Source: a virus
IMG/VR virus record: IMGVR_UViG_3300027782_004428
Span: 26,000 to 89,999 of that record
Reading direction: 5' to 3' (one strand)
Length of the DNA stretch: 64,000 bases
In this document: piece by piece, positions 2,614 to 63,805 of the stretch
Numbering within the stretch: position 1 is the stretch's first letter
Layout of the letters: each line of letters begins with the position of its first letter
Notes under the pieces: model-generated
Databases searched by the model: none
Told to the model about the DNA's origin: nothing
The model's input: the letters and a program-made list of their open reading frames with translations, nothing else
Program-made: the position numbers and the translations under genes

Positions 2614-3852
2614 ATGAAAAAAATTGGATTTATTGGTATCGGCAAACTAGGACTTGACTGCGCGGAAGTTATGGCAGAGAAGCACGAAGTCAGAGGCTAC
2701 GATATTTACCCGCGCACTAGCGACTCAGTAAAAGTTTGCGATATTGATGAATTGGTCAATGAAAGCGAATGGATTTTTATTGCTGTGCCTACCCCACATG
2801 CTGAAGGTTATGATGGGTCTGTGCCCAGCTCACATATGGAGCCCAGAGACTTTGGTCATGATGCTGTGATCAGTGCTATCAACAGTGTCAACAAGTACGC
2901 AAAATCACCAAAGAAGGTTGTGTTAATCTCTACAGTATTACCTGGCACAACACGTCGCAAGTTTTATCCACTGTTAGACAAACAACATCAGTTCTTGTAC
3001 AATCCTTATTTGATTGCCATGGGATCAGTCAAGTGGGACATGGTCAATCCTGAGATGGTCATGATTGGTACCGAAGATGGCAACCCCAATGCACTAGCCG
3101 GCGAGTTAATTGACCTGTACAAGACCATGATGGTAAATGATCCTCGCTATGAAATTGGCACCTGGGACGAATGCGAAGCTATCAAGATCTTCTACAACAC
3201 ATTCATTTCTGCCAAAGTTGGCCTGGTCAACATGATTCAAGACTTTGCACTACGTATTGGTCATATCAACGTTGACGTTGTGACAGATGCTTTGGCACGC
3301 TCAACCATGCGTATCATGGGACCTAAGTACATGACAGCAGGCATGGGCGATGCAGGCGCTTGCCACCCACGTGACAACATTGCACTGCGTTGGTTGGCCA
3401 AAGAATATGACATTGGTTATGACTTGTTTGACACAGTGATGCATGCTCGTGAAATCCAAGCCAAGAACCTTGCCATGTTCCTGGTTGAACAGGCCAAACA
3501 ACACAGCATGAGCATTGTGATTCACGGCAAGGCCTACAAACCTGATGTTGAATATTGTATTGGATCATACTCTACGCTGGTAGGACACTATGTTAAACAA
3601 GCAGGACATGATGTGAGATATCTTGACCCATTGGCAGATGATCCTGCTGACGTTATTTCAGAATTGGCTGGTCCTGTGGTCATCCTGTGGGCACACAATC
3701 GCAAGATCACTTATGAGTACACCGGTGATCAACTTGACACATTGCCGTATTGCCCAATTCCACATGGTAGTGTGGTGGTTGATCCATGGCGTAAACTGCC
3801 ACAGATTGAGAACTTGACCGTGGTACATTATGGTAACACACGCAATTCTTAA
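2614..3852 (+). CDS. ugd: UDP-glucose/GDP-mannose dehydrogenase family protein
   Basis: GIGKLG Rossmann motif, IAVPTP, STVLPGTT, YNP, EAIKIFYNTF, GACHPRD (catalytic Cys), GKAYKPD. Confidence 0.9.
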   Translation: MKKIGFIGIGKLGLDCAEVMAEKHEVRGYDIYPRTSDSVKVCDIDELVNESEWIFIAVPTPHAEGYDGSVPSSHMEPRDFGHDAVISAINSVNKYAKSPKKVVLISTVLPGTTRRKFYPLLDKQHQFLYNPYLIAMGSVKWDMVNPEMVMIGTEDGNPNALAGELIDLYKTMMVNDPRYEIGTWDECEAIKIFYNTFISAKVGLVNMIQDFALRIGHINVDVVTDALARSTMRIMGPKYMTAGMGDAGACHPRDNIALRWLAKEYDIGYDLFDTVMHAREIQAKNLAMFLVEQAKQHSMSIVIHGKAYKPDVEYCIGSYSTLVGHYVKQAGHDVRYLDPLADDPADVISELAGPVVILWAHNRKITYEYTGDQLDTLPYCPIPHGSVVVDPWRKLPQIENLTVVHYGNTRNS

Positions 3853-6325: not shown

Positions 6326-6584
6326 TTGGATTCGAAGTGACTACAAAACTAACCCACTTAGGTTTTTCGTGGAAGTACTGGCTTGGGCTGTGTCTATTGG
6401 GTGCAGTATTACGATGGCTGCCACTGTACCTAATCCCCCTCTCGTGGTACTTTACCCTATATGGATTAGTGGTTGTGCTATGTATGCTTGGGCTAGTTGG
6501 ACTCGTCAATCGTTTGGTATGTTGGCCAACTACATCCTCTTAGTCAGTATTGACACAGTGGGCCTAATTAGAATGCTATCTTAG
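6285..6584 (+). CDS. Small membrane protein (about 3 TM segments)
   Basis: Hydrophobic segments; start may be ATG 6297. Confidence 0.65.
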   Translation: MNNCMNNIFLNIFDWIRSDYKTNPLRFFVEVLAWAVSIGCSITMAATVPNPPLVVLYPIWISGCAMYAWASWTRQSFGMLANYILLVSIDTVGLIRMLS

Positions 6585-6616
6585 TAATATCATTGTAATA
6601 TATACGCCTATAAATA
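6582..6616 (+). promoter_or_regulatory. Pho-box-like repeat + TATAAATA late-type promoter
   Basis: TAGTAAT-ATCA-TTGTAAT (11-nt period) at 6582-6599; TATAAATA at 6609-6616. Confidence 0.5.
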
Positions 6617-6620
6617 AATG

Positions 6621-6692
6621 CAACCGACCACAATGATAGAGTGGCACTGGAACTCGTAACCAGTAGATACCCCAAAATTTGGGGTATTTTTT
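6621..6692 (+). ncRNA. Candidate small two-hairpin RNA (alternatively micro-ORF MIEWHWNS)
   Basis: Lies between a promoter and a terminator; stems CCAC/GTGG (6628-6644) and ACTGG/CCAGT (6646-6664). Confidence 0.4.
6667..6692 (+). terminator. Rho-independent terminator
   Basis: ATACCCCAAA-A-TTTGGGGTAT followed by a T run. Confidence 0.8.
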
Positions 6693-6730
6693 GTGTCATA
6701 AAACTGTCAAAAAATCACGGTCACTAAATA
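6693..6730 (+). promoter_or_regulatory. Pho box + TAAATA promoter
   Basis: GTGTCAT-AAAA-CTGTCAA (16/18 match to the E. coli Pho box consensus); TAAATA 6725-6730; ATG 4 nt later. Confidence 0.7.
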
Positions 6731-6734
6731 CTGA

Positions 6735-7397
6735 ATGAAACCCACCATAGCCCTTTTCCTGCACGACCCTAAGTGCAGTGTACAAAGCGGCAATGGGCTC
6801 ATGCGAGCCCTAGGCGATCATTACAAGTTCAAAATATTTGGTAAAAACAAATTAGAAGACGTGTTCTTTGACGACGTAGACATGATTGCTGTGCCTGGCG
6901 GCTTTGGTGATGCTGATTCATTTGAATCACTTTTTAAACACAATGCCGACCGTGTGCGACAATTTCTTGCTCGTGGCGGCCGATATCTGGGCATCTGCAT
7001 GGGCGCATACTGGGCCGGCAGCGAGTATCTTGATATCTTAGATGGTGTGGATGCAGTACAGTATATCCGACGTCCCGGCACAGATACACATAGACCACAT
7101 GCCAAGAACTTGCCTGTACTGTGGCGAGATCGGTATGGAAACATTGAACCTTGGAGCATGTTTTTTTATGACGGCTGTGCCTTGGTGGGCGACAAAACCA
7201 AGTTTAAGACTATGGCCACATACATCAACGGTGATGCTATGGCCATTATACAAAACAACATTGGATTAATTGGTTGTCATCCTGAAAGTGAACAATTCTG
7301 GTACGACAGTTACTCCTGGATGCGTGGTCGATATCATAGGGGTCAACATCACACACTGTTGTTGGATTTTGTGGACCAAATGTTTGTAACAAAATAG
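6735..7397 (+). CDS. BPL-N / class I glutamine amidotransferase-like protein
   Basis: VPGGFGD, GGRYLGICMGAY (nucleophile Cys), GCHPE (His-Glu). Confidence 0.8.
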   Translation: MKPTIALFLHDPKCSVQSGNGLMRALGDHYKFKIFGKNKLEDVFFDDVDMIAVPGGFGDADSFESLFKHNADRVRQFLARGGRYLGICMGAYWAGSEYLDILDGVDAVQYIRRPGTDTHRPHAKNLPVLWRDRYGNIEPWSMFFYDGCALVGDKTKFKTMATYINGDAMAIIQNNIGLIGCHPESEQFWYDSYSWMRGRYHRGQHHTLLLDFVDQMFVTK

Positions 7398-7418
7398 TAA
7401 CACAAATATGCCTAAATA
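7384..7418 (+). promoter_or_regulatory. Pho-box-like repeat + TAAATA promoter of plcP-agt
   Basis: TTGTAAC-AAAA-TAGTAAC at 7384-7401; TAAATA 7413-7418; ATG 7423. Confidence 0.6.
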
Positions 7419-7422
7419 CTAG

Positions 7423-8217
7423 ATGCCAAAAATATACCGCAGTATTTTTATCAGTGATGTGCATCTTGGCACAAGAGACTGCAAGGCAGAAGAACTAAAC
7501 AATTTTTTAAAGCACAACTCGTGCGATACCCTGTACCTAGTGGGTGACATCATTGACGCCTGGAAGATACAACAAAACCGGTGGCGATGGAAACAAAGCC
7601 ACACCAATGTGGTACGTCGTATACTGGGTCATGCCAAACGCGGCACTCGCGTGGTATTCATAGCAGGCAATCATGATGAATTCCTGCGTCCCATGATACC
7701 ATATGGTTTTAGTTTTGGACTAATAGAGATTCAAAATCAAACTGAACACATTGGTGCAGACGGCCGACATTATCTTGTGGTGCATGGAGACCTGTTTGAT
7801 GGTATCACAAGACTGGCACCGTGGATAGCATTTTTAGGAGACCGAGCATATGACTTTATTCTTGCGCTTAATAGCCGATTTAATTGGCTACTGCATCGTT
7901 TTGGTATTGGGTACTTTAGTCTTAGCCAGTACCTTAAAAAGCGAGTAAAGAAGGCTGTAGACTTTATTTTTCACTTTGAAAAAAATCTAGCCAATTACTG
8001 TCGAAAGCGCGGCTACGACGGTGTCATATGCGGACACATACATCACGCAGAAATAAAAGAGATCAACGGCGTGATTTACATGAATGACGGCGATTGGGTT
8101 GAGTCATGCACAGCACTGGTAGAACATCATGACGGTGCTTGGGAGATTGTAACATGGACACGAAAAAATGACCAAGAAGATACTGATAATAACAGACAAC
8201 TTACCGGATCAGATTAA
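7423..8217 (+). CDS. plcP: PlcP-type phospholipase C (LpxH2 / UDP-2,3-diacylglucosamine hydrolase-like metallophosphoesterase)
   Basis: YRSIFISDVHLG, LYLVGDIIDAW, GNHDE (His, not the GNRD Arg of true LpxH), HGDLFD, CGHIH, NDGDWVESCTALVE; adjacent GT4 gene as in bacterial plcP-agt loci. Confidence 0.82.
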   Translation: MPKIYRSIFISDVHLGTRDCKAEELNNFLKHNSCDTLYLVGDIIDAWKIQQNRWRWKQSHTNVVRRILGHAKRGTRVVFIAGNHDEFLRPMIPYGFSFGLIEIQNQTEHIGADGRHYLVVHGDLFDGITRLAPWIAFLGDRAYDFILALNSRFNWLLHRFGIGYFSLSQYLKKRVKKAVDFIFHFEKNLANYCRKRGYDGVICGHIHHAEIKEINGVIYMNDGDWVESCTALVEHHDGAWEIVTWTRKNDQEDTDNNRQLTGSD

Positions 8218-9178
8218 TGGTGTGGTCACCACTTACAAGAACATTGAGGCTTGTGCGGTACTGGATGGTTATACTGTGGATTATATTGACCCCGGGCGGT
8301 TCCGCTATGTTGATTGTCCTGGCTACAACGAAGTCAAACTTGCCATTCCGCGGGCAATGGGCAAGAAGATCGAAGAGATTGATCCGGATCATATCCACAT
8401 CGCCACAGAAGGTCCTCTTGGTCTGTGGGCTAGAAAGTATCTTTCAATATGCGATTATAGGTATAACACCGCTTATCATACTAAGTTTCCTGAAGGTCTA
8501 AAAAAGTTATTTGGTATTCCCGAAGCAGTGACTTGGCCGCTGGTGCGTTGGTTCCACAAGCATTCGGGAAAAGTTCTAACCACAACCGAAACCATGGTAC
8601 GTGAATTACAATCACACGGGTTTCGGGGCGAAATTGTTCCGTGGACTCGTGGTGTAGACCGTACAATCTTTAATCCCACTCACAGACAAAAAACTATCAG
8701 TCGCTACATCTTGTGTGTTAGTCGTGTAAGTAAAGAAAAGAATCTTGAAAAGTTTCTTGAGATGGACTATCCAGGTTTCTTAAAAATCATGGTAGGTGAT
8801 GGACCCATGCTGGAAACCTATCGTCGGCAGTATCCTGCGGTTCACTTTACAGGATTCAAAACAGGAGTAGATCTAGCCAAATACTATGCCAATGCCGAAG
8901 TATTTGTGTTTCCTAGCCAGTGGGAAACATTTGGCATTGTAATGATCGAAGCCATGGCTTGCGGCACACCTGTCGCTGCATATCCATGTCAAGGCCCAGA
9001 AGATGTTATTGACGAAGGTGTCACTGGCTGTATGAATGCGGACTTAAAGCAGGCCGTCACTGATTGTTTGTTTTTGAATAGAAATCAAGTATGGTCGGGT
9101 AGTCAACGTTGGTCATGGGATCGTGCCTGGGCGATATTCAGAGACAATCTAATTCCGGCGAAGCCGAGCAAGTCCTAG
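8168..9178 (+). CDS. agt: GT4 glycosyltransferase, Agt-type glycosyl-diacylglycerol synthase
   Basis: ILIITD..PDQINGVV, CPGYNEVKL, PDHIHIATEGPLG, YHTKFPE, RGVD, VSRVSKEKNL, FPSQWETFGIVMIEAMACGTPV. Confidence 0.78.
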   Translation: MTKKILIITDNLPDQINGVVTTYKNIEACAVLDGYTVDYIDPGRFRYVDCPGYNEVKLAIPRAMGKKIEEIDPDHIHIATEGPLGLWARKYLSICDYRYNTAYHTKFPEGLKKLFGIPEAVTWPLVRWFHKHSGKVLTTTETMVRELQSHGFRGEIVPWTRGVDRTIFNPTHRQKTISRYILCVSRVSKEKNLEKFLEMDYPGFLKIMVGDGPMLETYRRQYPAVHFTGFKTGVDLAKYYANAEVFVFPSQWETFGIVMIEAMACGTPVAAYPCQGPEDVIDEGVTGCMNADLKQAVTDCLFLNRNQVWSGSQRWSWDRAWAIFRDNLIPAKPSKS

Positions 9179-9856
9179 TGTTCTGAACAGGCTGAGCCAC
9201 ATCCAGCCTATATCAAATTCATACCAGTTCTTAGAGAGGCGGGCACTCGCTGGGTCCAAGTGGTGGTTGTTGTGCAACTCTTCACCGCCAATAACAATAC
9301 CCCAAGGCACAATATTACGACTATGATCTTTAGTTTTGCCATTTCTATATCCAATCCAATGTCCAACGCCGTTTATGACTCCGGCTGCCCAGAAAGGTAT
9401 CCATATCATCTGGATGCCCCAGATTACCGGACCCCACCATCCAAACACCAAGACGTCTAGCACAAAGAGAATGCCAATGCCAAGTCTAGAGTAAGGCTGG
9501 TATACGTGAAGCTCCATCCAATCAGCAGGAGTACCACGACCGTATGTATCAACCATAGTTTTATCTTTTGATGCCGCATGATATAGTACTGCCCCTTTAA
9601 ATAATACCTGCCATATACCGTACACATGAGGGGTATGCGGATCACCTTCCACATCACTGTATCTGTGATGCTTGCGATGTATGGCCACCCATTGCTTGGT
9701 TACCATGCCTGTGGTCAGCCATAACCAAAATCTCATGAAATGTTCAAGTGCAGGATGAAACTCTATGCCCTTGTGGGCCTGGCCACGATGCAAATACAAA
9801 GTGACACAGACGATGGTAATGTGTGTCATTACCAATGTTGCTATTAATTCTATCAT
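9149..9856 (-). CDS. desA: Delta-9 acyl-CoA/lipid desaturase (DesA-like)
   Basis: His boxes HRGQAH, HRKHH, HNNHH; WAAGVINGVGH; WYEFDIGW; TAAATA-N4-ATG. Confidence 0.9.
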   Translation of the reverse strand: MIELIATLVMTHITIVCVTLYLHRGQAHKGIEFHPALEHFMRFWLWLTTGMVTKQWVAIHRKHHRYSDVEGDPHTPHVYGIWQVLFKGAVLYHAASKDKTMVDTYGRGTPADWMELHVYQPYSRLGIGILFVLDVLVFGWWGPVIWGIQMIWIPFWAAGVINGVGHWIGYRNGKTKDHSRNIVPWGIVIGGEELHNNHHLDPASARLSKNWYEFDIGWMWLSLFRTLGLARLRRN

Positions 9857-9869
9857 TGTGTATTTAACG

Positions 9870-9890
9870 AAAAAGCCCCTCTCGGGGCTG
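9870..9890 (-). terminator. Rho-independent terminator
   Basis: AGCCCC-GAGA-GGGGCT + T run on the minus strand. Confidence 0.7.
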
Positions 9891-13040: not shown

Positions 13041-13098
13041 GTCCAAAAACGGCGTATAAATACAAGCGGTGTTACCACACCGCTTTCTTCACTTTAAA

Positions 13099-13674
13099 AT
13101 GACCACCGAAACCACACAAACAATTGAGCAGACCCACACCCAAGCCTTGGCCGATGCAGGAATGTATGTTTTTATGGGGGAAGTTGATCGCGACAACATC
13201 AAACCCATAATTGAATGGATCCTGCACGAGAACTTTGTGGCCAAGAGAAAACGCAAAGAACTCTTGTTGATGATTTGCTCCGAAGGCGGAGACATGAGTT
13301 CTGCATTTGCCTTGATTGATGTCATGCGCAGTTCTGTCATTCCTATCAAAGCTGTGGGACTGGGGCAAATTGCCAGTGCCGGATTGTTGATCTTTTTGGC
13401 AGGAACACCGGGTCGTAGAACGCTTACTCCAAACACAAGTATTATGAGTCACCAATATGCCTGGGGCAGTGATGGCAAGCATCACGAGCTGTTGGCCACA
13501 ATCAAAGAGTTTGAGCTAACACAAACCCGTATGGTACAGCACTACATAGATTGTACAGGTCTAAACGAAGAACAAATCAAACAACACCTGTTGCCACCGC
13601 ATGATGTTTATTTGGGTGCGGATGATGCCTTGCGGTTGGGCATCTGCGACCATATCAGCCAACTGTCTCGTTAG
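13099..13674 (+). CDS. ClpP-like serine protease (divergent paralog)
   Basis: ICSEGG, GQIASAG (Ser), IMSHQ (His), HDVYL (Asp); TATAAATA at 13055. Confidence 0.8.
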   Translation: MTTETTQTIEQTHTQALADAGMYVFMGEVDRDNIKPIIEWILHENFVAKRKRKELLLMICSEGGDMSSAFALIDVMRSSVIPIKAVGLGQIASAGLLIFLAGTPGRRTLTPNTSIMSHQYAWGSDGKHHELLATIKEFELTQTRMVQHYIDCTGLNEEQIKQHLLPPHDVYLGADDALRLGICDHISQLSR

Positions 13675-15239
13675 CCCTTTTTCTTACGTCCCAGCGTCTT
13701 TTCGTCAAAGTCGGGCTCTTGACTTTGTCTGGATGCTCGAGCACCCGGACCAGACAGTCTAGGTTCCTGACCTACCTGATCAAGTTTTGCATTTTCAGCA
13801 TCAGTATCGCCTACCGCAGTAACGTCCACATCAGTATCTTTGTCACCACCGCCATTGTAACTAAAACTCACACGACCAATAATACCTGTGGCTGAATAAC
13901 ACTTGGTAGCATCCAGTCCCACAGTGCCCTTAAAGTCTGGTGGGTATTTGCTGGTAAACCCAGTGACAGTATAATTGCCGGCTTTTTCTGACCCGTTTAG
14001 ATGTAACTGAATAATAGGACTAGAGTTCAAAAACTTCAAACATGCTTTGCCAAACTTTGGGTCCTGGTTGATGTTTTTAGATACTCGTCGAGCCAAAGCA
14101 GCCAATGCATGGTACCCTGTGTTGTAACGGGGATTATCTGTTTTGGCATTGATGTCGCCCATGAGATCTAGGATAGCCGGATTGGTAGGTGTGGCATTGG
14201 TTTTAACCAATTGCTTGATTTCTGCTCCGGTTTCCTGATCAATGATGCCTTGCTCTACGCCATACACAATGGGAAAATCTAGTGAGCTTAACTGACCAAC
14301 ACGTTCAATAACTTCTACCTGGTCTGCGTATTCTGTTAGCAATTCTGTCATGTCTTTTTGTCTTGCAGTTTTGACACCGTCTGAAATGTTCTTAACTGAG
14401 GCACTGGCACCTTTTTCGCCTTTGCTAGAGATACCAATCTCAACACCGCCTGGATGCAACAAGTAACTATCAACCAGGAGATTGTTTTTACCAGCTGGGA
14501 AATTAATTGCGCTTCCATCATAGGTACCGTCTTCGCCAAGTATATCTTTACGTGCGGCCTCGGCACCCACGCCCATGTTCATACCTTGTATCAAAGCAAT
14601 AGGCCCAATAGTTTCACCGAGATCATCACGCACAGCAGTGACCATGTCGCCCATGTTTTCAAACCTGGGCAATTGACCAGCCAGCAACTGATCCATACCT
14701 GGGCGTACTTTGTCAATGCTGGACATTTGATCGGGTGTTATTCCTGGTCGAGTGCCCATAGCGGCCACAGTATCTGCTGGTGTAGCAAAGATTGAATTTT
14801 CGGGAAATAAATCTGCTGGTTTGAGTTTGTAGTAGGAACCTTTTAAACTTACCGCTTTGTTTAACTGCCAGCCGCCAGGCAACTCAGAGTTTTTCCAGAA
14901 ACCTGCCATGTCAGGTTTGATCTCGCTGAAAAATCTACCAAAATATGTTTTTTGGCCTGCCGCAGGACCGTTAAATGTTAAAATAGCAAAGGCCTTGCTG
15001 GCTTGTGTAGGTTTGTTACTCCAGGTAATACTGGGATATTGGTTGAACAAATCTGCACCTGTTTGCGACATTTCATCATAGTTGGCATAGGCACCTGGCA
15101 TGCCAGGAAAGTAATCAACCTTGTCAAATACAATTTCGGCGGTGGGATTATCTTTGGATCCTTGAAAAAACGAGTCGCCCTGATCACGATACAACAATCC
15201 GCGACTTTTTTCCATGATAATATTGATAAGATCTCTCAT
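13671..15239 (-). CDS. Large hypothetical protein with PD-(D/E)xK-like motif; possible virion-internal protein
   Basis: LVDSY...EIGISSKG; N-terminus [10 protein letters not shown]. Confidence 0.45.
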
Positions 15240-15290
15240 TGCGTTTTCCAAATAATTATGTTATACTTATGCTTTCAACAAGGAGACCCT

Positions 15291-15884
15291 ATGCCAAATC
15301 TAGTACCAATCGTGCTTGAACAAACCTCAAAAGGTGAACGCAGTTATGACATCTACAGCCGATTGCTAAAGGATCGTGTGATCATGCTGGACACAGAAGT
15401 TTCAGAACACACTGCCAGTTTGCTGGTAGCACAAATGTTGTTTTTGGAAAGTGACAATCCAGACAAAGATATTTCCTTATACATCAACTCACCTGGAGGA
15501 TCAGTCACAGCAGGCATGGCCATCTATGATACCATGCAGTTTATTAAATGTGATGTACAGACCATTGTGATGGGACAGGCCTGCAGCATGGGAAGTCTGC
15601 TAAGTACAGCAGGAGCCGCAGGCAAACGTATGATCCTGCCCCATGCCCGACACATGATTCACCAACCATCAGGTGGTGCTCATGGACAAGCCACAGACAT
15701 CCAAATCCAAGCACGTGAAATTCAAAAGATGAAAGAATATCTGACCACGATCTATGTCAAGCACAACTCAGCGGGTAAAACCTTTGAGCAGTTGAGTGCA
15801 GACATGGAACGTGATTTCTTTATGAGTGCTCAAGAAGCCCTGGACTACGGACTAGTGGACAAGATACTTGACCGCCGTGCCTAA
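15291..15884 (+). CDS. clpP: ATP-dependent Clp protease proteolytic subunit
   Basis: [51 protein letters not shown]; AAGGAG RBS. Confidence 0.95.
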
Positions 15885-17166
15885 CTCAAACATATTCTGC
15901 AATACTCCGTGGTATGAGCTACACATCTATTGGGATGGTAGTTTAGGTATCTGTTGTCAAGAGTCTCACAAACTCTATGACGACAACAGTTACAACATTG
16001 CCACGACTAGTATTGCAGAATGGTTTAACTCTGACCCTGTACGACATTTTAGGCAAGGTGTCTTGGGCGATCGCCCGGTGAGTGCGTGTTCTAGATGTTA
16101 TCAAGAAGAGATCGTGGGCGGCAATAGTCGTCGCATCAAAAGCAATCAAAAAAGTGTTATCTTCCAGCAGGCGTTTGAGGACAGTTTTGAACAAAGTCCT
16201 GGCCGTAGACATTTTGATGAGTCTGGAACCACTGGTACCCATCCCATTGACATACATGTGGATCTTGGAAACTATTGCAACCTGGCCTGCAAGATGTGCG
16301 ATGCTCAGGCGTCCAGTATCATTGCTTCACAACAGGTCAAGTGGGGGATTGAGTCTAGTAGACAATACCTTGGCACAGATTGGACACAAGATCAACAGGT
16401 GTGGAACAGTTTCCTAACGCAACTGATACACATACCTAAATTAAACAACATTCACTTCATGGGCGGTGAAACACTGTTGACTCGCCGCTTTGAGGATCTT
16501 GTGGATCACTTGATTGCACATGATCGCCTGGATGTGTGTTTCTCTTTTGTGACCAACGGTACTACATTCAAGCCTGAGTTGATGACCAAACTAAAAAAAT
16601 TTCGCAGAGTGGGCATAGAAGTCAGCATAGAAACTGTGGATGCACACAATGTTTACCAACGTCAGGGCACAGACAATCAGTTGGTCATGGCCAATCTTGA
16701 TCGATATCAAGATTTGTGCAACGGATCAAACATAACACTCACAGCAAGACCTGCGGTCAGTGCCCTAACCATTGGATACTTTCCGGGACTGCTGGAATAC
16801 TGCTTGGATAAAAACTTAATAGTCAAGAGTTTGTTGGTTACCAATCCACAATTCTTAAACGCAGTGATCTTGCCCGACACAGTGAAACAACAATATCTCA
16901 AGCATTATCAAGTTCTACTAGACAGATTAAATAGTGTACAAGTTCCCAAGGACTACAATGCCAGTGATCCAAACAATCATGACATGATTGTGAAAGAACA
17001 GGTGCAAATGTGCATGAATATTTTGCGTCAACCGGCGCCCCCAGACGTAGAACAACAGCGCAAACTCATGGTAGAGCATTGTCGCAAATGGGATCAGGTA
17101 TATGGGTATGATGCTAGAACATTGTATCCGGAACTGGCAGAGGTATGGACACAGTATGACTACTAA
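15868..17166 (+). CDS. Radical SAM protein with N-terminal twitch/SPASM-like domain
   Basis: [18 protein letters not shown]; N-terminal C..PW...CC...CSRC. Confidence 0.85.
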
Positions 17167-22079: not shown

Positions 22080-22970
22080 ATGCACATAGAACCCACCAGC
22101 AGATGCACTTTATCTTGTCCAGCCTGTCCTAGAACATGGTTTTCTGACAGATTAAATCGCGCATTTCCCAAACAAGATTTAGACTTAGATCATCTTGAAC
22201 ATTTTTTGGATTGCAAAAGCGGTCATCAAATCAAATCATTCATGCTCAATGGCAATCATGGTGATCCGATTTATTATCCTGATCTTTTGCCCCTGATAGC
22301 TCGATTTAGAAATACCAAATCATTTAAAATCAGCACCAATGGCAGTTACCAAACACCAAAATTCTGGCAAGAGTTATCAAACCAGTTAACAGACAAAGAC
22401 ACTGTGTTTTTTAGCATCGATGGACTTGAGCACAACAATCATTTGTATCGAAAAAACAGTGACTGGAAATCAATCATGCAAGGACTGGAAATCATGTCTC
22501 AGGGTCCGGCTCGCGTGGTTTGGAAAACTCTGATATTTTCTTATAACGCAAATGAACTAGATCAAATTCAAGATGTTGCACACAGTCGCGGGGTAGAATT
22601 CATTGCCGAATCAACCAGCAGATTTGGCGATGATGCCTTGGTCCCGGATACCCACCTGATTGATACCAGTCGTTTGTACAAAAATATTCAAGAACAAGTA
22701 ACCATCCAACCACAGTGTAGCACACAAGAATATATTTCAGCAGATGGATACTATTGGCCGTGTTGTCTAATCACTTCAATGTTTACTTTACATAAAACAG
22801 AATTATGGAAACAAAGGAAAAATTGGGCTATTCAAAATCAGACGTTAGATCAAACTAGGTTACATTTGAACCACTGGAAACAATCTATTTTGGACAGCCC
22901 AGAGACTGCGCATGATGTGTGTAAAATGAGTTGTAAACCAGGTCAGGAATTTGGTTGGTCCAAAATGTGA
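22080..22970 (+). CDS. Radical SAM protein with C-terminal SPASM/twitch-like Cys motifs
   Basis: CTLSCPAC, GNHGDP, STNGS, FSIDG, YWPCC; TAAATA-N4-ATG. Confidence 0.85.
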   Translation: MHIEPTSRCTLSCPACPRTWFSDRLNRAFPKQDLDLDHLEHFLDCKSGHQIKSFMLNGNHGDPIYYPDLLPLIARFRNTKSFKISTNGSYQTPKFWQELSNQLTDKDTVFFSIDGLEHNNHLYRKNSDWKSIMQGLEIMSQGPARVVWKTLIFSYNANELDQIQDVAHSRGVEFIAESTSRFGDDALVPDTHLIDTSRLYKNIQEQVTIQPQCSTQEYISADGYYWPCCLITSMFTLHKTELWKQRKNWAIQNQTLDQTRLHLNHWKQSILDSPETAHDVCKMSCKPGQEFGWSKM

Positions 22971-23773: not shown

Positions 23774-24130
23774 ATGGAACTAATAAATTTTATACTTGAT
23801 CTTGTGTTTTGGGGCATGGTGTCCTGGTTCGTGTTTACCTGGTTGGTGAGTCGTTATTTGGAGTCACGCCAGGTTGATTCGGTGGTACATGATCTTGATC
23901 AGGAACGGCTGATCCCACTCACAGTAGAGGTTGACCAAAATCAATATTTCTGCTACAATAGTATTACTAAGGCATTTGTGTGCCAAGGTTACAGTTTGAA
24001 GGAAATTGTAGAACGTTTTAAACAACTGTATCCAGAAAAGGCAGCCGCCATTTATGACGGCGACGAAACAGCAGTACGTATACTTAAATCACAATTGAAA
24101 GAACTAGATGAAAATCGCAATAGCATCTGA
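23774..24130 (+). CDS. Membrane-anchored hypothetical protein
   Basis: N-terminal TM; TAAATA-N4-ATG; internal promoter TTGACC(23931)-N17-TACAAT. Confidence 0.65.
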   Translation: MELINFILDLVFWGMVSWFVFTWLVSRYLESRQVDSVVHDLDQERLIPLTVEVDQNQYFCYNSITKAFVCQGYSLKEIVERFKQLYPEKAAAIYDGDETAVRILKSQLKELDENRNSI

Positions 24131-25031
24131 CCTCCATCTTGAATTTGGTGACCTTGAAATCACCAATGACAATCAGGCTGATGTGTTGATCTTGAGCGGC
24201 GACATCCTTGTTGCCAAAGACATCACACAACGTGATCCTCATGGCGTGATGGGCCCAGAATATCGTAGCAATCGTTTTCATGATTTCATGCAACGATGCT
24301 CGGCACAATTCCCACACGTTATCTACATATTGGGTAACCATGAGCACTACCATGGTGACTTTGCCAATACAGAAAAACACCTGAAGGAAGTGCTGGGCTA
24401 CTTGTCCAACGTGTACATTCTAGAACGTGAGATCAAGGCAATCGATGATGTTACTTTTATTGGTGGCACATTGTGGACCGACATGAACAACGGTGATGAA
24501 CTTACTTTGTATCACATGAAGACCATGATGAACGACTTTGTTTGTGTGCAAAACTCTAACCGGGTTGTGAACTACCGAGCAGATGTTCTTAAAGACAAGC
24601 CAGTGGGCATGACTGACGACGAATTTTTGATGTTGCCCACTTGTGATCGATTCAAAACAGTGTTCAAGACTCGTACTGCAAAATTTCAGCCCGAAGATGC
24701 GGCGGCGGAGCATGCTCAGACCAAAGGCTACATTCAGCAAATTATTGAAGGCAAACCAGATCAAAAGTTTGTGGTAGTGGGACACCATGCTCCAAGCCGC
24801 AAAAGCACACATGAAATGTATGTTAAAGATACTGTCATGAACGGTGGTTACAGTAGCAACATGGACGAGTTTATCATGGATCATCCACAGATTCGACTGT
24901 GGACACATGGACACACGCATCATGTGTTTGACTATGTGATTGGTGAAACCCGTGTGGTTTGCAATCCACGCGGTTATATTAACTATGAAGCGAGGGCAAG
25001 TGAATGGAAACTCCTGACCGTGGATATCTAG
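24108..25031 (+). CDS. Calcineurin-like metallophosphoesterase
   Basis: SDLHLE, SGDI, GNHEHY, GGTLWTD, GHHAPS, HGHTH, CNPRGY. Confidence 0.9.
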   Translation: MKIAIASDLHLEFGDLEITNDNQADVLILSGDILVAKDITQRDPHGVMGPEYRSNRFHDFMQRCSAQFPHVIYILGNHEHYHGDFANTEKHLKEVLGYLSNVYILEREIKAIDDVTFIGGTLWTDMNNGDELTLYHMKTMMNDFVCVQNSNRVVNYRADVLKDKPVGMTDDEFLMLPTCDRFKTVFKTRTAKFQPEDAAAEHAQTKGYIQQIIEGKPDQKFVVVGHHAPSRKSTHEMYVKDTVMNGGYSSNMDEFIMDHPQIRLWTHGHTHHVFDYVIGETRVVCNPRGYINYEARASEWKLLTVDI

Positions 25032-36717: not shown

Positions 36718-37238
36718 ATTTTTCCAGTGGATTGACAGTGGGCGGATTTTCAGATTACAACTATGGTGCAATTCCATCGTTGGCCACTGTTGATCTTTCC
36801 AAACTGACAACATCAAGTATCACAATATCAAATACTGCACCATCATACAGTATCAGCAACAGCGGCATCAGCAACCATCGTGCTAGTTTAGGACAGTCAA
36901 ATACAGTTTGGACCACATCGGGCACAGGCAGTATAAATTGGAACCAAAGCGCCGTGGGCGGAGTTTATCATAACCCAGCCATGGAAGTTAACCAAGGTGG
37001 ACAAGTCTCTCTTAAAGGCGACAACGCTGACATTGATATCAATGGCAAGAGCCTGGTCAAATGGATGCAGGTCATGGAGGAACGCATGAACTGGATGCAA
37101 CCCAACGTGGAACTGGAAAAAGAATGGGACGATTTGAAGAAGCTGGGAGACCGCTATCGCAAGTTGGAACAGAAGTGCCGAGAAAAAGCAGACATGTGGA
37201 AGAAACTTAAATCAATGCCCAAACCGGAGATCAGATGA
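36660..37238 (+). CDS. Hypothetical protein, Ser/Thr-rich N-terminus and coiled-coil C-terminus
   Basis: ADIDINGKSL...EKEWDDLKKLGDRY. Confidence 0.65.
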   Translation: MAITINLAEEQENNTTDTINFSSGLTVGGFSDYNYGAIPSLATVDLSKLTTSSITISNTAPSYSISNSGISNHRASLGQSNTVWTTSGTGSINWNQSAVGGVYHNPAMEVNQGGQVSLKGDNADIDINGKSLVKWMQVMEERMNWMQPNVELEKEWDDLKKLGDRYRKLEQKCREKADMWKKLKSMPKPEIR

Positions 37239-61918: not shown

Positions 61919-63091
61919 ATGGACAAAACTCTAGGCTATTACACCTGTGATGGCATGGAATTTGAAAGCAAGATCCATGCTCTACAACATTCTACCACGA
62001 CACACAAACCTGTAGAGTGGCATTTTAATTGTTGGGAGTTTGGTCAACACAACTGGGCAATCGAACCGCCAGAGACTCTAGATCAACTGTATCAACGCAG
62101 AGCACAACAAATACGTGAGCAGTATGATTATGTGATTGTGAGTTTCAGTGGCGGCAGTGACAGCTGGAACATCATGCGGGCATTCATGGACCAGGGACTG
62201 CTGGTGGATGAGATTGTGTCTAACTGGGCACTTGACGCCAGCAGCAAGTATATTGTATTGGATTCAACGCAACACAGCAGTTGGAACAATGTGGCTGAAT
62301 ATCATTTGAACTGTGTGGAACGCATCAAAGAAATACAAGCACGTAGTCCTGCTACAAAGATCACAGTAAACGACACAAGCCAGGCCCTGATTGACACATT
62401 CCTTACTGCTGATGATGCCAGCTGGACTGCTGGCAAGCGCGAAGTACTCAATCCCACAGGTGCAACCAACTACAACTACAGGTATTTCAGTGACGTTCGC
62501 AAACAGTTTGATCGAGACAAAAAGATTGCCATTGTACTGGGACAAGACAAACCCAAACTGATTATCAAAGACCATCAGCTGTACACATATTTTATAGACA
62601 AGACCATAAATCTAACCAATGTACAAGAACACCTGGGCGAATACCCCAACTGTCATACCATGTTTTTTTATTGGAGCCCTGACTCTTGCGATATGTTGGC
62701 CAAACAGGCACATGTAATTTTACGTGCGATCAATCAAAATCCACGCCTGGCCGCAGTATTTTCTACCACTGATGCTAAGACACAACGGGTTCTTCAAGAG
62801 CCCATGCTAAAGCGTTGGTTGTATTCTACCTGGGACACCAACTGGTTTCAAGTGCATAAAGCCATGGGTGACTGGAACAGCACACTGGATCACTGGTTCA
62901 CTCGCGGCTGGGCAGGCACACGAGAGCATGCCATATGGCAAGCAGGAATACAACATGTTACCTCAAGTCTCGATGCCAAATACCTTGCCAAAGACAAAAA
63001 CGGCACAGTTAATGGTACTGTGCCGTTCACAAGTCCTTGTTATTATATAGGGACTGTGGTACAATTACCCCCTGTCACTGTAGAGTTTTAG
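61919..63091 (+). CDS. PP-loop (HUP-fold) ATP pyrophosphatase-like protein
   Basis: YQRRAQQIREQYDYVIVSFSGGSDS; GQDKP; FYWSPD...KQAH. Confidence 0.7.
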   Translation: MDKTLGYYTCDGMEFESKIHALQHSTTTHKPVEWHFNCWEFGQHNWAIEPPETLDQLYQRRAQQIREQYDYVIVSFSGGSDSWNIMRAFMDQGLLVDEIVSNWALDASSKYIVLDSTQHSSWNNVAEYHLNCVERIKEIQARSPATKITVNDTSQALIDTFLTADDASWTAGKREVLNPTGATNYNYRYFSDVRKQFDRDKKIAIVLGQDKPKLIIKDHQLYTYFIDKTINLTNVQEHLGEYPNCHTMFFYWSPDSCDMLAKQAHVILRAINQNPRLAAVFSTTDAKTQRVLQEPMLKRWLYSTWDTNWFQVHKAMGDWNSTLDHWFTRGWAGTREHAIWQAGIQHVTSSLDAKYLAKDKNGTVNGTVPFTSPCYYIGTVVQLPPVTVEF

Positions 63092-63805
63092 CACTGACCC
63101 GATGATCCGGTGACGTTGAACGTCACGAGCCTCGAGTGCGCAAACAGCAATGCCTGTTGTGGGCGTTGACTGCAAACGTTCACAAAGATCCAGCAGGCCG
63201 TTGTCTCCGCTATGTCGGTCGGCCTGCTCCACATCTCCTGTGATCACTATCTTTGAATTCGTCCCTATTCGAGTCATCAACATCTTGACCTGTGCTGGTG
63301 TAGCATTTTGCATTTCGTCAGCAATAATCCATGAGTTTTTAAAAGTTCGGCCGCGCATGAATGCCAGAGGCGCAATCTCCACAACTTGATCTTCTATAAG
63401 GGCTACAATGTCCTGGGCACGATAATATTCGCGCATGACATCCAATAGCGGACGAGTCCACGGTTCCATTTTGGCAACCAAATTGCCCGGGAGGAAACCA
63501 TGACTTTCTCCCTCCACACCCACTGCTGGGCGTGTCATTACGATCCTATCACATGCACCTTCCTTTAATGCCTTAACGGCCGCCTGCATGGCTAGATAAG
63601 TTTTGCCCGTACCTGCGGGACCTACTGTAACTACTATGTGGGCGTCAGGGTCTTGTAGAGCCATGACCAAGCGTTCTTGATTTCGTGTGCGAGGGATCAA
63701 GTCTATGCGGCGCTGTGCCGTTCTAGGTGCTGGACTAAAGCTGATGGTGTTTTCTACTGCCTGATTCATTCTTTTTTGTGCTTTCGCTGATCGCTGTCTA
63801 CTCAA
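63065..63805 (-). CDS. phoH: PhoH-like ATPase
   Basis: GPAGTGKT, TRPAV, GFLPG, LAFMRGRTF, DEMQN, GDVEQAD. Confidence 0.95.
   Translation of the reverse strand: MSRQRSAKAQKRMNQAVENTISFSPAPRTAQRRIDLIPRTRNQERLVMALQDPDAHIVVTVGPAGTGKTYLAMQAAVKALKEGACDRIVMTRPAVGVEGESHGFLPGNLVAKMEPWTRPLLDVMREYYRAQDIVALIEDQVVEIAPLAFMRGRTFKNSWIIADEMQNATPAQVKMLMTRIGTNSKIVITGDVEQADRHSGDNGLLDLCERLQSTPTTGIAVCALEARDVQRHRIIGSVLKLYSDRG

What the first reader, a model, noticed from the sequence alone, without database searches (positions are those of the whole stretch)
6582..9856. Phage-encoded phosphate-starvation lipid-remodelling module (PlcP + Agt + desaturase) under Pho boxes
Seen: 7423-8217 has the full PlcP/LpxH2 motif set, with GNHD rather than the GNRD of LpxH. 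It overlaps a GT4 gene (8168-9178) with the Agt-type HIATEGPLG and YHTKFPE motifs. A Pho-box-like repeat lies directly upstream (7384-7401) and a DesA converges on the pair. Known: in Sinorhizobium, Agrobacterium, SAR11 and Pseudomonas, PhoB-induced PlcP cleaves phospholipid head groups to give DAG, and Agt converts DAG to glucosyl- or glucuronosyl-DAG. Inference: the phage could strip phosphate from host membranes for DNA synthesis while keeping the envelope intact with P-free glycolipid. The Ugd at 2614 could supply UDP-glucuronate, and PhoH and two other phosphoesterases are in the window. I am not aware of this module being described in a phage.
Basis: partly seen in the sequence, partly recalled or inferred. 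Interest (0 to 1): 0.9.

Follow-up and report, generated by a model that had tools for sequence, protein, structure and literature searches.

The report
Phage-encoded PlcP-Agt membrane lipid-swap operon
A large uncultured lake phage carries its own copies of the two bacterial enzymes that cut the phosphate head off membrane lipids and put a sugar in its place, behind phosphate-starvation-type control sites, so it probably draws phosphorus from its host's membrane.

Summary
Window 7423-8217 encodes a metallophosphoesterase that separates from true LpxH (100/100) and sits in one clade with the P. aeruginosa and S. meliloti PlcP orthologues. The overlapping GT4 (8168-9178) is the orthologue of the glycosyltransferase downstream of plcP in Burkholderiaceae and P. 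aeruginosa.

The record is a phage fragment, not a chimera. 224 IMG/VR stretches encode close PlcP relatives. In the 80 fetched, plcP is followed by this GT4 (37) or by a GT2 (40), never both.

A canonical Pho box lies at 6693-6710 (expected 0.01 per window). Related phages carry the same box in front of their pstS, with TAAATA mostly 11 or 21-22 nt downstream.

The desaturase is intact but has no such box and is only loosely linked. The Ugd link is unproven.

No enzyme activity, PhoB binding or lipid change has been shown. My literature searches found no description of a phage-encoded PlcP; virus surveys list the gene as "lpxH". This scan has reported the same module before on other DNA.

The parts
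6665..6689 (+). Terminator-like hairpin (11 pairs) with a T run; it closes the upstream unit just before the Pho box
6693..6710 (+). Canonical Pho box GTGTCATAAAACTGTCAA: two TGTCA half-sites 11 bp apart, 2 mismatches to the 18-nt consensus, both at its ends
   Evidence: It is the only match in 64 kb at up to 2 or 3 mismatches; 0.01 expected at up to 2. Near-identical boxes sit at the same place in L006, L011, L004 and L014. It shares GTCATAAAACTGTC with the promoter of a cellular plcP, L102.
6725..6730 (+). TAAATA, a -10-like (T4-late-like) element 14 nt after the box and 4 nt before the ATG
6735..7397 (+). First gene of the unit: a 220-aa class-I glutamine-amidotransferase-like / BPL_N protein with a GICMG cysteine and an HPE motif. 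Function unknown.
   Evidence: Pfam BPL_N 37.3 bits, GATase 24.4 bits. Sequence. Its family is mostly viral. It lies near plcP in 15 of 37 fully flanked loci.
7385..7401 (+). TGTAAC-N5-AGTAAC direct repeat, a Pho-box variant, overlapping the stop codon of the upstream gene
7413..7418 (+). TAAATA, a -10-like element 11 nt after the repeat and 4 nt before the plcP ATG
7423..8217 (+). plcP: PlcP-type metallophospholipase C (264 aa)
8168..9178 (+). agt: GT4 diacylglycerol glycosyltransferase orthologue (336 aa)
9149..9856 (-). Short DesA-type membrane fatty-acid desaturase (235 aa) with three His boxes, convergent on agt. It is a neighbour, not a fixed member of the module.
   Evidence: NF049918 389.4 bits against a cut-off of 400, covering positions 11-241 of 385. 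HX4H at 23-28, HX2HH at 60-64, HX2HH at 195-199. Linkage.
9861..9866 (-). TAAATA 4 nt before the desaturase ATG; no Pho-type box upstream
9874..9889 (.). Terminator-like hairpin found on both strands, bounding the desaturase gene
2614..3852 (+). Nucleotide-sugar dehydrogenase (Ugd-like), a possible but unproven supplier of UDP-glucuronate
   Evidence: It is syntenic with the module in 8 of 37 fully flanked loci.
63080..63697 (-). PhoH homologue (context only)
   Evidence: PF02562 231.5 bits

Best explanation
The stretch is a three-gene operon of an uncultured freshwater phage (probably a jumbo phage): GATase1-like gene, plcP, agt.

Inferred enzymology, from orthology:
- PlcP is a Mn-dependent phospholipase C of the LpxH-like metallophosphoesterase fold. 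It cleaves the phospho-head group from host glycerophospholipids and leaves diacylglycerol.
- Agt, a GT4 enzyme, transfers glucose and/or glucuronate from a UDP-sugar onto that diacylglycerol. This gives phosphorus-free glycolipids that keep the membrane intact.

Inferred regulation, from sequence and comparison:
- Two promoters, each a PhoB-type direct repeat placed 14 or 11 nt upstream of a TAAATA -10-like element, lack a -35 box.
- Transcription should therefore depend on the host's activated PhoB, that is, on infection of a phosphate-starved cell.
- The TAAATA lies only 4 nt before each ATG, so the mRNAs would be nearly leaderless.

Inferred purpose: freeing lipid phosphorus for phage nucleotide synthesis when phosphate limits the burst.

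Shown here: gene identity, orthology, phage context, conservation of the plcP-glycosyltransferase pairing, and conservation of the promoter architecture, including its use at phage pstS.

Not shown: enzyme activities, sugar specificity, PhoB binding, and any effect on host lipids or phage yield.
For: PlcP, not LpxH
- The protein scores 47.8 and 36 bits on the two NCBIfam LpxH models, against cut-offs of 134 and 190.
- In 5 of 5 genomes of the family of the Polynucleobacter MAG, a true LpxH (265-295 bits) lies at a separate locus. The paralogue that matches the phage protein scores only 35-43 bits on the LpxH model in the 4 of those genomes where it reached the listing.
- 34 of 61 genomes of that family hold a relative. 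Each has one full-length copy at 46-54% identity, apart from one copy broken by stop codons and a second weak hit at 31%.
- In an IQ-TREE analysis of 49 rows, the 5 LpxH rows separate at 100/100. The other 44 rows hold the window, the viral clade (89/99), the Burkholderiaceae proteins, and the P. aeruginosa and S. meliloti proteins.
- The P. aeruginosa protein is 57% identical to the window protein. A GT family 1 gene and an adenylate cyclase gene follow it, which is the PA3219-PA3218 layout. PMC8528852 (passages read) reports PA3219 and PA3218 as PlcP and Agt1, with a Pho box.
- The S. meliloti protein is 49% identical.
- The AlphaFold2 model has mean pLDDT 76.9. Its top 24 listed Foldseek matches in the PDB are all LpxH, at TM about 0.53, and it carries a helical insert at residues 122-195.

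Agt
- In 11 of 12 cellular loci, a GT4 that is 41-44% identical lies directly downstream of plcP.
- In 5 of 5 genomes, the best match (261-284 bits) is that plcP-adjacent gene, and the next GT4 scores 107 bits or less.
- It is 37.6% identical to the P. aeruginosa gene downstream of plcP.
- The motif positions are conserved.
- B. cenocepacia plcP-agt-dagK is induced by Pi depletion, and its agt makes MGDG and GADG in E. coli (PMC13691135, passages read).

Coupling of plcP to a glycosyltransferase
- Of the 80 related viral loci, 37 have this GT4 and 40 have instead a roughly 237-aa GT2 directly after plcP. None has both. The other 3 have under 1.2 kb of downstream flank.

Phage context
- The window belongs to an IMG/VR virus record.
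- Tail fibre, baseplate and clamp-loader genes lie to the right; RNR and DNA ligase genes lie to the left.
- The same neighbours (Ugd, UvdE, GAT) recur in independent assemblies.

Regulation
- The Pho box at 6693-6710 is the only match in the window, with 0.01 expected.
- TGTAAC-N5-TGTAAC occurs within 120 nt upstream of plcP in 16 of 63 loci with distinct upstream sequence. That is 2.44 per kb, against 0.006 per kb elsewhere.
- Three of the hits elsewhere lie upstream of phage pstS genes. Two of these (L038, L070) were scored on NCBIfam and reach 413-434 bits against a cut-off of 339; the third (L077) has Pfam PBP_like_2 only.
- Of 25 distinct boxes, 20 are followed by TAAATA at +11 (14 boxes), +21 (3) or +22 (3). 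TAAATA occurs in 81 of 5000 random windows.
- TGTCAY and TGTAAC half-sites interchange at the same position.
- Cellular plcP and pstS promoters of the same family carry TGTCAT-type repeats with an 11-bp period, one of them TGTCAC-N5-TGTAAC.
- No sigma-70 -35/-10 pair precedes either gene.

Occurrence
- 13 DNA runs other than the best holder, from 12 studies, hold at least 59% of the sampled words. They are labelled freshwater metagenome or metagenome.
- Short contigs identical to the window lie on GAT, plcP, agt and the desaturase in four lake RNA libraries. DNA carry-over is not excluded.
Against: - No activity, lipid product or regulator binding has been measured for any phage copy.
- The phage clade is only 46-57% identical to characterised or syntenic cellular PlcPs. 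The nearest representative outside its own cluster is at 54%, so a shifted substrate range is possible.
- The sugar specificity of the GT4 cannot be read from sequence. P. aeruginosa Agt1 makes only MGDG, whereas the B. cenocepacia enzyme makes MGDG and GADG.
- The 7385-7401 repeat is not above chance within the window.
- Its TGTAAC half-sites differ from the TGTCAT consensus at two positions. They are the minority form in the cellular pstS promoters I read: 1 of 5.
- The gap from box to TAAATA is 14 nt at the first promoter but 11 nt at the second.
- The related loci share ancestry, so the conservation counts are not independent events. The GT4/GT2 partner state needs 10 changes on the best PlcP tree, but well-supported branches force only 1.
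- The host is unknown.
- PlcP releases phospho-alcohols, not phosphate. A further phosphatase is needed, and I did not identify one.
- Contigs from RNA libraries do not prove transcription.
Confidence: 0.66

Rival explanations
1. The enzymes are what they seem, but the purpose is not phosphorus supply. The phage re-tailors the envelope (charge, fluidity, receptor display) to block superinfection, to stabilise a starved host until lysis, or to resist membrane-active stress. The phosphate-starvation switch merely times this.
For: Lipid renovation alters membrane proteins and possible phage receptors in P. aeruginosa (PMC9804370, passages read). A desaturase and an ACP-region/desaturase/ketosynthase set in the same window point to broader lipid tailoring. 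The pelagimyophage paper reads phage glycosyltransferases as surface modification against co-infection (PMC7029224, passages read).
Against: The same promoter box precedes phage pstS, directly next to plcP, in relatives. In Pelagibacter phage Mosig, plcP is head-to-head with the annotated phosphate-transporter gene. This ties the gene to phosphorus acquisition rather than to surface change alone. The two purposes do not exclude each other.
Confidence: 0.2
2. The direct repeats are not PhoB sites. They bind another OmpR/PhoB-family regulator or a phage-encoded factor, and the operon with the neighbouring pstS is a phage-timed (late-type, TAAATA) unit that does not respond to phosphate.
For: TGTAAC differs from TGTCAT at two positions. 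TAAATA resembles the T4-type late promoter core (recalled) and also precedes genes without any box, such as the desaturase, 22080, 23774 and 42951. The host and its PhoB are unknown.
Against: A near-consensus Pho box heads the operon in this window and in L006, L011, L004 and L014. TGTCAY and TGTAAC half-sites replace each other at the same position, and one cellular pstS promoter has TGTCAC-N5-TGTAAC. The box is almost confined to plcP and pstS upstream regions: 2.44 per kb against 0.006 per kb elsewhere. pstS is the classic Pho-regulon gene.
Confidence: 0.15
3. The pair is an LPS module: LpxH (lipid A synthesis) plus an LPS or O-antigen glycosyltransferase, as automatic annotation and virus gene surveys list it.
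For: JGI names the close relatives LpxH. GenBank phage records call the homologue UDP-2,3-diacylglucosamine hydrolase or diphosphatase. The only solved relatives are LpxH. Two virus surveys list lpxH under LPS synthesis.
Against: The scores are far below both LpxH cut-offs. The protein has GNHD where LpxH has GNRD. LpxH splits off at 100/100 in the tree, and genomes carry a separate true LpxH. The GT4's orthologue is the plcP-linked Agt, not any other GT4 of the same genomes.
Confidence: 0.04
4. The module is host DNA joined to phage DNA by mis-assembly or mis-binning.
For: Two short MAG contigs, binned as Haliscomenobacter and Polynucleobacter, carry the same genes.
Against: Those contigs carry the phage neighbours UvdE and GAT. 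Many IMG/VR contigs from different samples show the same order. GC is even across the window. Cellular homologues are at most 57% identical.
Confidence: 0.02

Closest known systems
P. aeruginosa PA3219 (PlcP) - PA3218 (Agt1) lipid-renovation operon (PMC8528852, passages read)
   Same: The gene order is the same: plcP, then a glycosyltransferase directly downstream, with overlapping ends. Identity is 57% for PlcP and 37.6% for the transferase. A Pho box sits upstream, and the predicted chemistry is the same: phospholipid to DAG to glycosyl-DAG.
   Different: The module is encoded by a virus and headed by an extra GATase1-like gene. It has two promoters with TAAATA close to the ATG. The Pho-box half-sites at the second promoter are TGTAAC. 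There is no second Agt.
B. cenocepacia BCAL2364-BCAL2365-BCAL2366 (plcP-agt-dagK) (PMC13691135, passages read)
   Same: Genomes of the same bacterial family hold the nearest syntenic cellular operons I sampled: PlcP 46-54% and Agt 41-45% identical. The B. cenocepacia operon is Pi-regulated, and its Agt gives MGDG and GADG in E. coli.
   Different: I saw no dagK in the window region. The phage clade forms its own branch, separate from the 11-row Burkholderiaceae clade in the tree.
S. meliloti SMc00171, Phaeobacter MED193 and SAR11 HTCC7211 PlcP/Agt (PMC4796936, passages read)
   Same: The plcP-agt arrangement is the paper's 'type 2' neighbourhood. The phage loci with a GT2 in place of the GT4 recall its types 3 and 5, where another glycosyltransferase follows plcP. 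The S. meliloti orthologue is 49% identical.
   Different: Those are cellular starvation responses. Here a virus brings the genes. The GT2 of the sister phages matched no cellular locus among those I fetched.
Phage phosphate-stress genes (pstS, phoA, phoH) with Pho boxes in cyanophages (recalled; no paper read here)
   Same: They are host-derived genes in T4-like phages, placed behind host Pho-type sites. Relatives of this phage carry pstS behind the same box, and the window has phoH.
   Different: Those genes import or scavenge external phosphorus. This module would mobilise the host's own membrane phosphorus and replace the lipid.
LpxH (UDP-2,3-diacylglucosamine diphosphatase)
   Same: Same fold, with a helical insert, and the same metal-binding motifs.
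   Different: See the membership test: model cut-offs are not met, it has GNHD rather than GNRD, and it forms a separate clade.

Membership tests
PlcP (PhoB-regulated metallophospholipase C) | Calcineurin-like metallophosphoesterase with the full set of metal ligands and GNHD | tested here: met
   D12, H14, D42, N83, H84, H121, H205 and H207 are invariant across 18 phage and cellular sequences
PlcP (PhoB-regulated metallophospholipase C) | Groups with experimentally characterised PlcP and apart from LpxH | tested here: met
   the split is supported at 100/100. The P. aeruginosa and S. meliloti orthologues lie inside the 44-row clade with the window. They were identified by synteny; the link of the S. 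meliloti locus to SMc00171 rests on recalled gene numbers.
PlcP (PhoB-regulated metallophospholipase C) | A gene for a non-phosphorus-lipid enzyme directly downstream | tested here: met
   GT4 in the window. GT4 or GT2 in 77 of 80 viral loci; the other 3 have too little downstream flank. GT4 in 11 of 12 cellular loci.
PlcP (PhoB-regulated metallophospholipase C) | Phospholipase C activity on PE, PG or PC that yields diacylglycerol | not testable with these tools
   needs an enzyme assay or lipidomics
Agt (diacylglycerol glucosyl/glucuronosyl transferase, GT4) | Two-domain GT4 (GT-B) enzyme | tested here: met
   Glyco_transf_4 46 bits and Glycos_transf_1 85.4 bits
Agt (diacylglycerol glucosyl/glucuronosyl transferase, GT4) | Orthologous to the plcP-linked transferase rather than to other GT4s | tested here: met
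   261-284 bits for the plcP-adjacent gene in 5 of 5 genomes, next best 107 or less. Also.
Agt (diacylglycerol glucosyl/glucuronosyl transferase, GT4) | Makes MGDG and/or GADG from DAG and a UDP-sugar | not testable with these tools
   needs heterologous expression and LC-MS
LpxH | Reaches the curated score of the LpxH equivalog models | tested here: not met
   47.8 against 134 and 36 against 190.35. True LpxH scores 265-295.
LpxH | GNRD motif | tested here: not met
   the query has gnhd where the solved LpxH chains have gnrd
Pho-regulon promoter | Two or more TGTCA-type half-sites with an 11-bp period in place of a -35 box | tested here: met
   6693-6710. No sigma-70 -35/-10 pair precedes either gene.
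Pho-regulon promoter | The same element in front of a canonical Pho gene of the same genome lineage | tested here: met
   The TGTAAC-type box precedes pstS in L038, L070 and L077. This record itself holds no pstS.
Pho-regulon promoter | Binding by PhoB and induction by phosphate starvation | not testable with these tools
   needs a gel shift or footprint and reporter assays; the host is unknown
DesA-family membrane fatty-acid desaturase | Three His boxes and the curated model score | tested here: inconclusive
   The His boxes are present. NF049918 scores 389.4 against a cut-off of 400 and covers only positions 11-241 of 385. The short form is conserved in relatives at 65-93% identity.
Phage auxiliary metabolic gene | Lies inside a viral genome, between viral genes, in independent assemblies | tested here: met

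The most novel reading that the evidence does not exclude
A widespread group of large freshwater phages, and at least one cultured marine pelagiphage that carries plcP beside pstS, senses host phosphate starvation through the host's own PhoB. In response it converts the host's membrane phospholipids into glycolipids, turning the envelope into a phosphorus store for phage DNA synthesis. plcP is paired with one of two alternative glycosyltransferases (GT4 or GT2). A conserved, mostly viral GATase1-like enzyme of unknown role heads the operon in this phage. If so, viral 'lpxH' counts in gene surveys are really a measure of virus-driven lipid phosphorus recycling in P-limited waters.
Probability: 0.4. 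Interest if true: 0.8.

Novelty: new member of a known kind. Interest (0 to 1): 0.68.

Why it matters
Phosphorus often limits lake and ocean microbes, and a large phage genome is rich in phosphorus. Phage genes that import phosphate are well known. A phage-borne route that mobilises the host's own membrane phosphorus while replacing the lipid would be a new class of viral metabolic takeover.

The genes are common: 224 viral stretches were found in one scan, and the stretch occurs in freshwater runs of 12 further studies.

The idea is directly testable. Both enzyme families have working assays and null mutants in non-pathogenic bacteria. One cultured pelagiphage, Mosig, already carries the plcP half.

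Tried and rejected
Searches and steps that gave nothing or could not be used:
- blastn of the 3.4-kb stretch against 50,697 GenBank phage records found no match.
- The pattern TGTMAY-N5-TGTMAY found no match in the window.
- The genome-contig scan with the single protein found only two mis-binned MAG contigs, so it gave no cellular donor.
- The representative search gave 957 relatives at E up to 1e-30 but no names or context. The donor lineage and the host therefore stay open.
- The atlas look-up of the GATase1-like protein gave only 'BPL_N domain, mostly viral'. I have no function for it.
- NCBIfam gave the sister phages' GT2 no specific name; the best match was an arsenosugar-type GT at 61-68 bits against a cut-off of 182. 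Its acceptor is inferred only from position.
- The fold search cannot separate PlcP from LpxH, because only LpxH structures turned up among the solved structures searched.
- I tested whether the GT4/GT2 alternation reflects many independent swaps. The best tree needs 10 changes, but supported branches force only 1. I therefore do not claim repeated replacement. Nine of the 80 viral rows had been dropped before that tree, for short or interrupted matches.
- The first Pho-box count did not remove identical upstream regions. One search did.
- RNA-library contigs show presence in RNA libraries, not transcription, starts or levels.
- Supplementary tables of the papers were closed. Table S2 of PMC4796936 (plcP neighbourhood types) and the AMG tables of the virus surveys might bear on what is already listed.
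The ORF I tested, 39450-39839, had no Pfam match.

Considered and rejected: LpxH plus an LPS transferase, and a host-phage chimera. Both are covered under rival explanations.

Full report
What is there.

The window is bases 26000-89999 of a linear IMG/VR virus record of 89,999 bases, which CheckV rates 26% complete. That would imply a genome of about 350 kb, which is my inference. GC is even, 0.42-0.51 in 2-kb steps.

The finding's stretch holds four ORFs:
- 6735-7397 +, 220 aa;
- 7423-8217 +, 264 aa;
- 8168-9178 +, 336 aa, overlapping the previous gene by 50 nt;
- 9149-9856 -, 235 aa, converging on and overlapping the GT4 end by 30 nt.

Pfam assigns them as follows:
- BPL_N and GATase to the first gene;
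- Metallophos (43.3 bits) to the second;
- Glyco_transf_4 plus Glycos_transf_1 (46 and 85.4 bits) to the third;
- FA_desaturase (49.4 bits) to the fourth.

A terminator-like hairpin at 6665-6689 precedes the unit. A hairpin found on both strands at 9874-9889 follows the desaturase gene.

Is it a phage?

To the right lie a tail-fibre protein (phrog_2631, 84 bits), weak baseplate and head matches, and a clamp loader (265 bits). To the left, in the first 26 kb of the record, lie both ribonucleotide reductase subunits, a DNA ligase and a weak virion-protein match.

A scan of IMG/VR matched 232 stretches, of which 224 encode a relative of the 264-aa protein. The best 80 were kept, at 81-97% identity, on contigs of up to 524 kb. 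Several independent contigs repeat the order Ugd, an unknown ORF, UvdE, GAT, plcP, GT4.

The scan of 185,579 species genomes found only two short MAG contigs, labelled Haliscomenobacter and Polynucleobacter. Both carry the phage neighbours UvdE and GAT, so I read them as mis-binned phage DNA. A host-phage chimera is therefore very unlikely.

PlcP or LpxH?

The protein scores 47.8 and 36 bits on the two LpxH equivalog models, whose cut-offs are 134 and 190. Solved LpxH chains match only its first 125 residues, at 27 bits, and show GNRD where it has GNHD.

I used the Polynucleobacter MAG as a centre and sampled its family. Of 61 genomes, 34 hold a relative. Each has one full-length copy at 46-54% identity, apart from one copy broken by stop codons and a second weak hit at 31%.

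In 5 of 5 of those genomes a true LpxH (265-295 bits) lies at a different locus. The paralogue that matches the phage protein scores only 35-43 bits on the LpxH model in the 4 of those genomes where it reached the listing.

The plasmid collection happens to hold chromosome pieces of named bacteria.
- In P. aeruginosa, a protein 57% identical is followed directly by a GT family 1 gene and then an adenylate cyclase gene.
- This is the PA3219-PA3218 layout. The passages I read of PMC8528852 describe these genes as PlcP and Agt1, with a Pho box, Pi induction and MGDG synthesis. That the cyclase is cyaB (PA3217) is recalled.
- In a 3.72-Mb S. meliloti record, a protein 49% identical lies next to an acyl-homoserine-lactone synthase gene and a LuxR gene. 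I take it as the SMc00171 orthologue, but the gene numbers are recalled.

An IQ-TREE analysis used 49 rows: 24 of the 71 usable viral rows picked at random, plus all the others. It separates the 5 LpxH rows at 100/100. The other 44 rows hold the P. aeruginosa and S. meliloti proteins, the Burkholderiaceae proteins, the phage Mosig and S-SRM01 proteins, and the viral clade with the window (89/99) (a quick tree agrees).

The AlphaFold2 model has mean pLDDT 76.9, with lower confidence in the helical insert at residues 122-195. Its top 24 listed Foldseek matches in the PDB are all LpxH, at TM about 0.53. This shows the shared fold with a lipid-binding-type insert but cannot tell the two enzymes apart.

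The glycosyltransferase.

In 11 of 12 fetched cellular loci, a GT4 41-44% identical over its full length lies directly downstream of plcP on the same strand. In 5 of 5 genomes the best match to the window's GT4 (261-284 bits) is exactly that gene, and the next GT4 reaches at most 107 bits.

The passages I read of PMC13691135 show that B. cenocepacia plcP-agt-dagK is induced by Pi depletion. They also show that its agt alone makes MGDG and GADG in E. coli. PMC4796936 calls plcP followed by agt the commonest neighbourhood, and shows the SAR11 Agt making both lipids.

No GenBank phage record holds a close relative of this GT4; the best full-length matches are 29-31% identical.

A comparative result that strengthens the coupling.

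- Among the 80 related viral loci, 37 carry this GT4: 28 directly after plcP, 5 within 2.5 kb, and 4 cut by the locus end.
- In 40 others the gene directly after plcP (-50 to +200 nt) is a roughly 237-aa GT2 (PF00535 71-77 bits, GT21 32-35 bits).
- No locus has both. The last 3 loci have under 1.2 kb of downstream flank.

So every informative locus pairs plcP with a glycosyltransferase from one of two unrelated families. This recalls the cellular 'type 2' and 'types 3 and 5' neighbourhoods of PMC4796936.

The loci are related to each other. On the PlcP tree the partner state needs 10 changes, but well-supported branches force only 1. I therefore do not claim repeated independent swaps.

Regulation.

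The 18-nt Pho-box consensus (recalled; PMC8528852 prints a like one) matches once in the 64-kb window, at 6693-6710 on the coding strand. It has 2 mismatches, both at its ends, and 0.01 matches are expected. The box lies 4 nt after the terminator hairpin and 14 nt before a TAAATA, which ends 4 nt before the ATG at 6735.

Near-identical boxes stand at the same place in L006, L011, L004 and L014. A low-GC cellular plcP promoter (L102) shares 14 of its letters.

It overlaps the stop codon of the first gene and is followed after 11 nt by TAAATA and after 4 more by the plcP ATG. Alone in the window it is not above chance.

Across relatives the picture is different.
- With up to 1 mismatch it occurs within 120 nt upstream of plcP in 16 of 63 loci with distinct upstream sequence. 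That is 2.44 per kb, against 0.006 per kb elsewhere.
- Three of the hits elsewhere lie upstream of a gene that is itself just upstream of plcP. Two of these (L038, L070) are PstS by NCBIfam, at 413-434 bits on NF008171 against a cut-off of 339. The third (L077) has only the Pfam PBP_like_2 match.
- Of 25 distinct boxes, 20 are followed by TAAATA at exactly +11 (14 boxes), +21 (3) or +22 (3). TAAATA occurs in 81 of 5000 random windows.
- TGTCAY and TGTAAC half-sites replace each other at the same position: TGTCAC plus AGTAAC in L014, TGTAAC plus AGTCAT in L015.
- pstS promoters in five low-GC genomes of the sampled family carry TGTCAT-type repeats with an 11-bp period, one of them TGTCAC-N5-TGTAAC.
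- No sigma-70 -35/-10 pair precedes either gene.

I read this as activator-dependent promoters of the Pho type. PhoB binding itself is not shown, and the host is unknown.

TAAATA followed by 4 nt and then ATG also precedes the desaturase and three other genes of the record that have no box. TAAATA is therefore the core promoter-like element, and the box is the specific part. With pstS, the same TAAATA is followed by an ordinary leader with a Shine-Dalgarno sequence. That supports reading it as a -10 element, and reading the plcP and GAT mRNAs as nearly leaderless (inference).

- The desaturase has all three His boxes. It scores 389 bits on the DesA-family model, just under the cut-off of 400, because it lacks the model's last 140 or so positions. 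The short form is conserved in relatives. It has no Pho-type box, and it lies near plcP in only 4 of 37 loci with at least 5 kb on both sides.
- The dehydrogenase at 2614-3852 belongs to the nucleotide-sugar dehydrogenase family but falls below the subfamily cut-off. It is syntenic in 8 of 37 loci. Its product is not known.
- PhoH is present. This record has no pstS. It holds one further Metallophos protein, at 24108-25031.

Occurrence and expression.

Thirteen DNA runs other than the best holder, from 12 studies, hold at least 59% of the stretch's sampled words. They are labelled freshwater metagenome or metagenome.

I laid four lake metatranscriptome runs on the stretch. Short contigs without any difference lie on plcP (7521-7671, 7685-7835), on agt (8778-8945, 9007-9157) and on the end of GAT (7176-7423). 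One contig with a single difference spans the GAT-plcP junction (7309-7548). These are RNA libraries, but DNA carry-over cannot be excluded and contigs show no transcript starts. This is a weak hint only.

Is it known?

- No paper in the library holds both 'auxiliary metabolic' and 'plcP'.
- 'plcP' with 'phage' or 'viral' returns papers on host lipid renovation and phage adsorption, or on unrelated PLCP proteases.
- 'phage-encoded' with 'lipid remodeling' and 'phosphate' returns one unrelated paper.
- Of the eight papers holding both 'auxiliary metabolic' and 'lpxH', I read passages of two. Both list viral lpxH under LPS synthesis.
- The pelagimyophage paper reads phage glycosyltransferases and Ugd as LPS genes. 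In the passages I read it does not mention phospholipase or LpxH.
- The Mosig genome announcement does not mention lipid or phosph- terms. Yet its record has the plcP homologue (48% identical) head-to-head with the gene annotated 'putative phosphate ABC transporter'. Their shared intergenic region holds TTAACA-N5-TTAACA.
- One lake study reports a different viral DAG glucosyltransferase, ugtP.

Subscription journals and supplementary tables were not searchable.

This scan has already reported the same module on other DNA: 90 notes in at least 74 genomes. Those follow-up reports agree with this one. None of them holds the words for the GT4/GT2 alternation.

Verdict.

It is not supported for the desaturase and Ugd as module members, and it is untested for activity and purpose.

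This is a new, viral member of a known pathway and of a known class of phage phosphate-stress genes. It is widespread and currently mis-annotated.

Noticed in passing
window 6735-7397: The first gene of the operon encodes a 220-aa class-I glutamine-amidotransferase-like (BPL_N) protein with a GICMG cysteine and an HPE motif. Its family is mostly viral. It lies near plcP in 15 of 37 fully flanked related loci. I did not see it next to the cellular plcP loci I fetched. Its role is unknown.
   Followed up: partly
G000: window 6735, 7423, 9856(-), 22080, 23774, 42951: Six genes have TAAATA exactly 4 nt before the ATG and no Shine-Dalgarno sequence. This suggests a class of nearly leaderless transcripts from a T4-late-like -10 element.
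   Followed up: partly
L030-L083 (40 viral loci), e.g. L033:6752-7465: Sister phages have a roughly 237-aa GT2 directly after plcP in place of the GT4, never both. The GT2 matches no curated family above cut-off and no cellular locus that I fetched.
   Followed up: partly
L002:4842-4991 (Pelagibacter phage Mosig): The plcP homologue is head-to-head with the gene annotated as a phosphate ABC transporter. The shared intergenic region has TTAACA-N5-TTAACA, and AATAAATA ends 5 nt before the plcP ATG. A cultured phage is therefore available for testing the plcP half.
   Followed up: partly
window 40115-42009: A second fatty-acid desaturase (40115-40870) and a beta-ketoacyl synthase (40867-42009) overlap by 4 nt.
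   Followed up: no
window 13069-17166, 22080-22970, 32312-33265, 37235-38017: Other host-like genes: two ClpP homologues, two radical-SAM proteins (one with a SPASM domain), a TRAP-type DctP solute-binding protein and an NAD synthase.
   Followed up: no
L084/L091, L090 (Haliscomenobacter MAG); L085/L089/L092 (Polynucleobacter MAG): Public MAGs hold short contigs that carry this phage group's genes. This is likely mis-binning. It could also be a weak host hint, which I did not resolve.
   Followed up: partly
L120 (CP090106.1), L121 (NZ_CP137508.1): A 3.72-Mb S. meliloti record is labelled as plasmid pSymB. A 96-kb P. aeruginosa 'plasmid' carries the chromosomal-type plcP-agt locus. PGAP names both PlcP proteins UDP-2,3-diacylglucosamine diphosphatase.
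   Followed up: no
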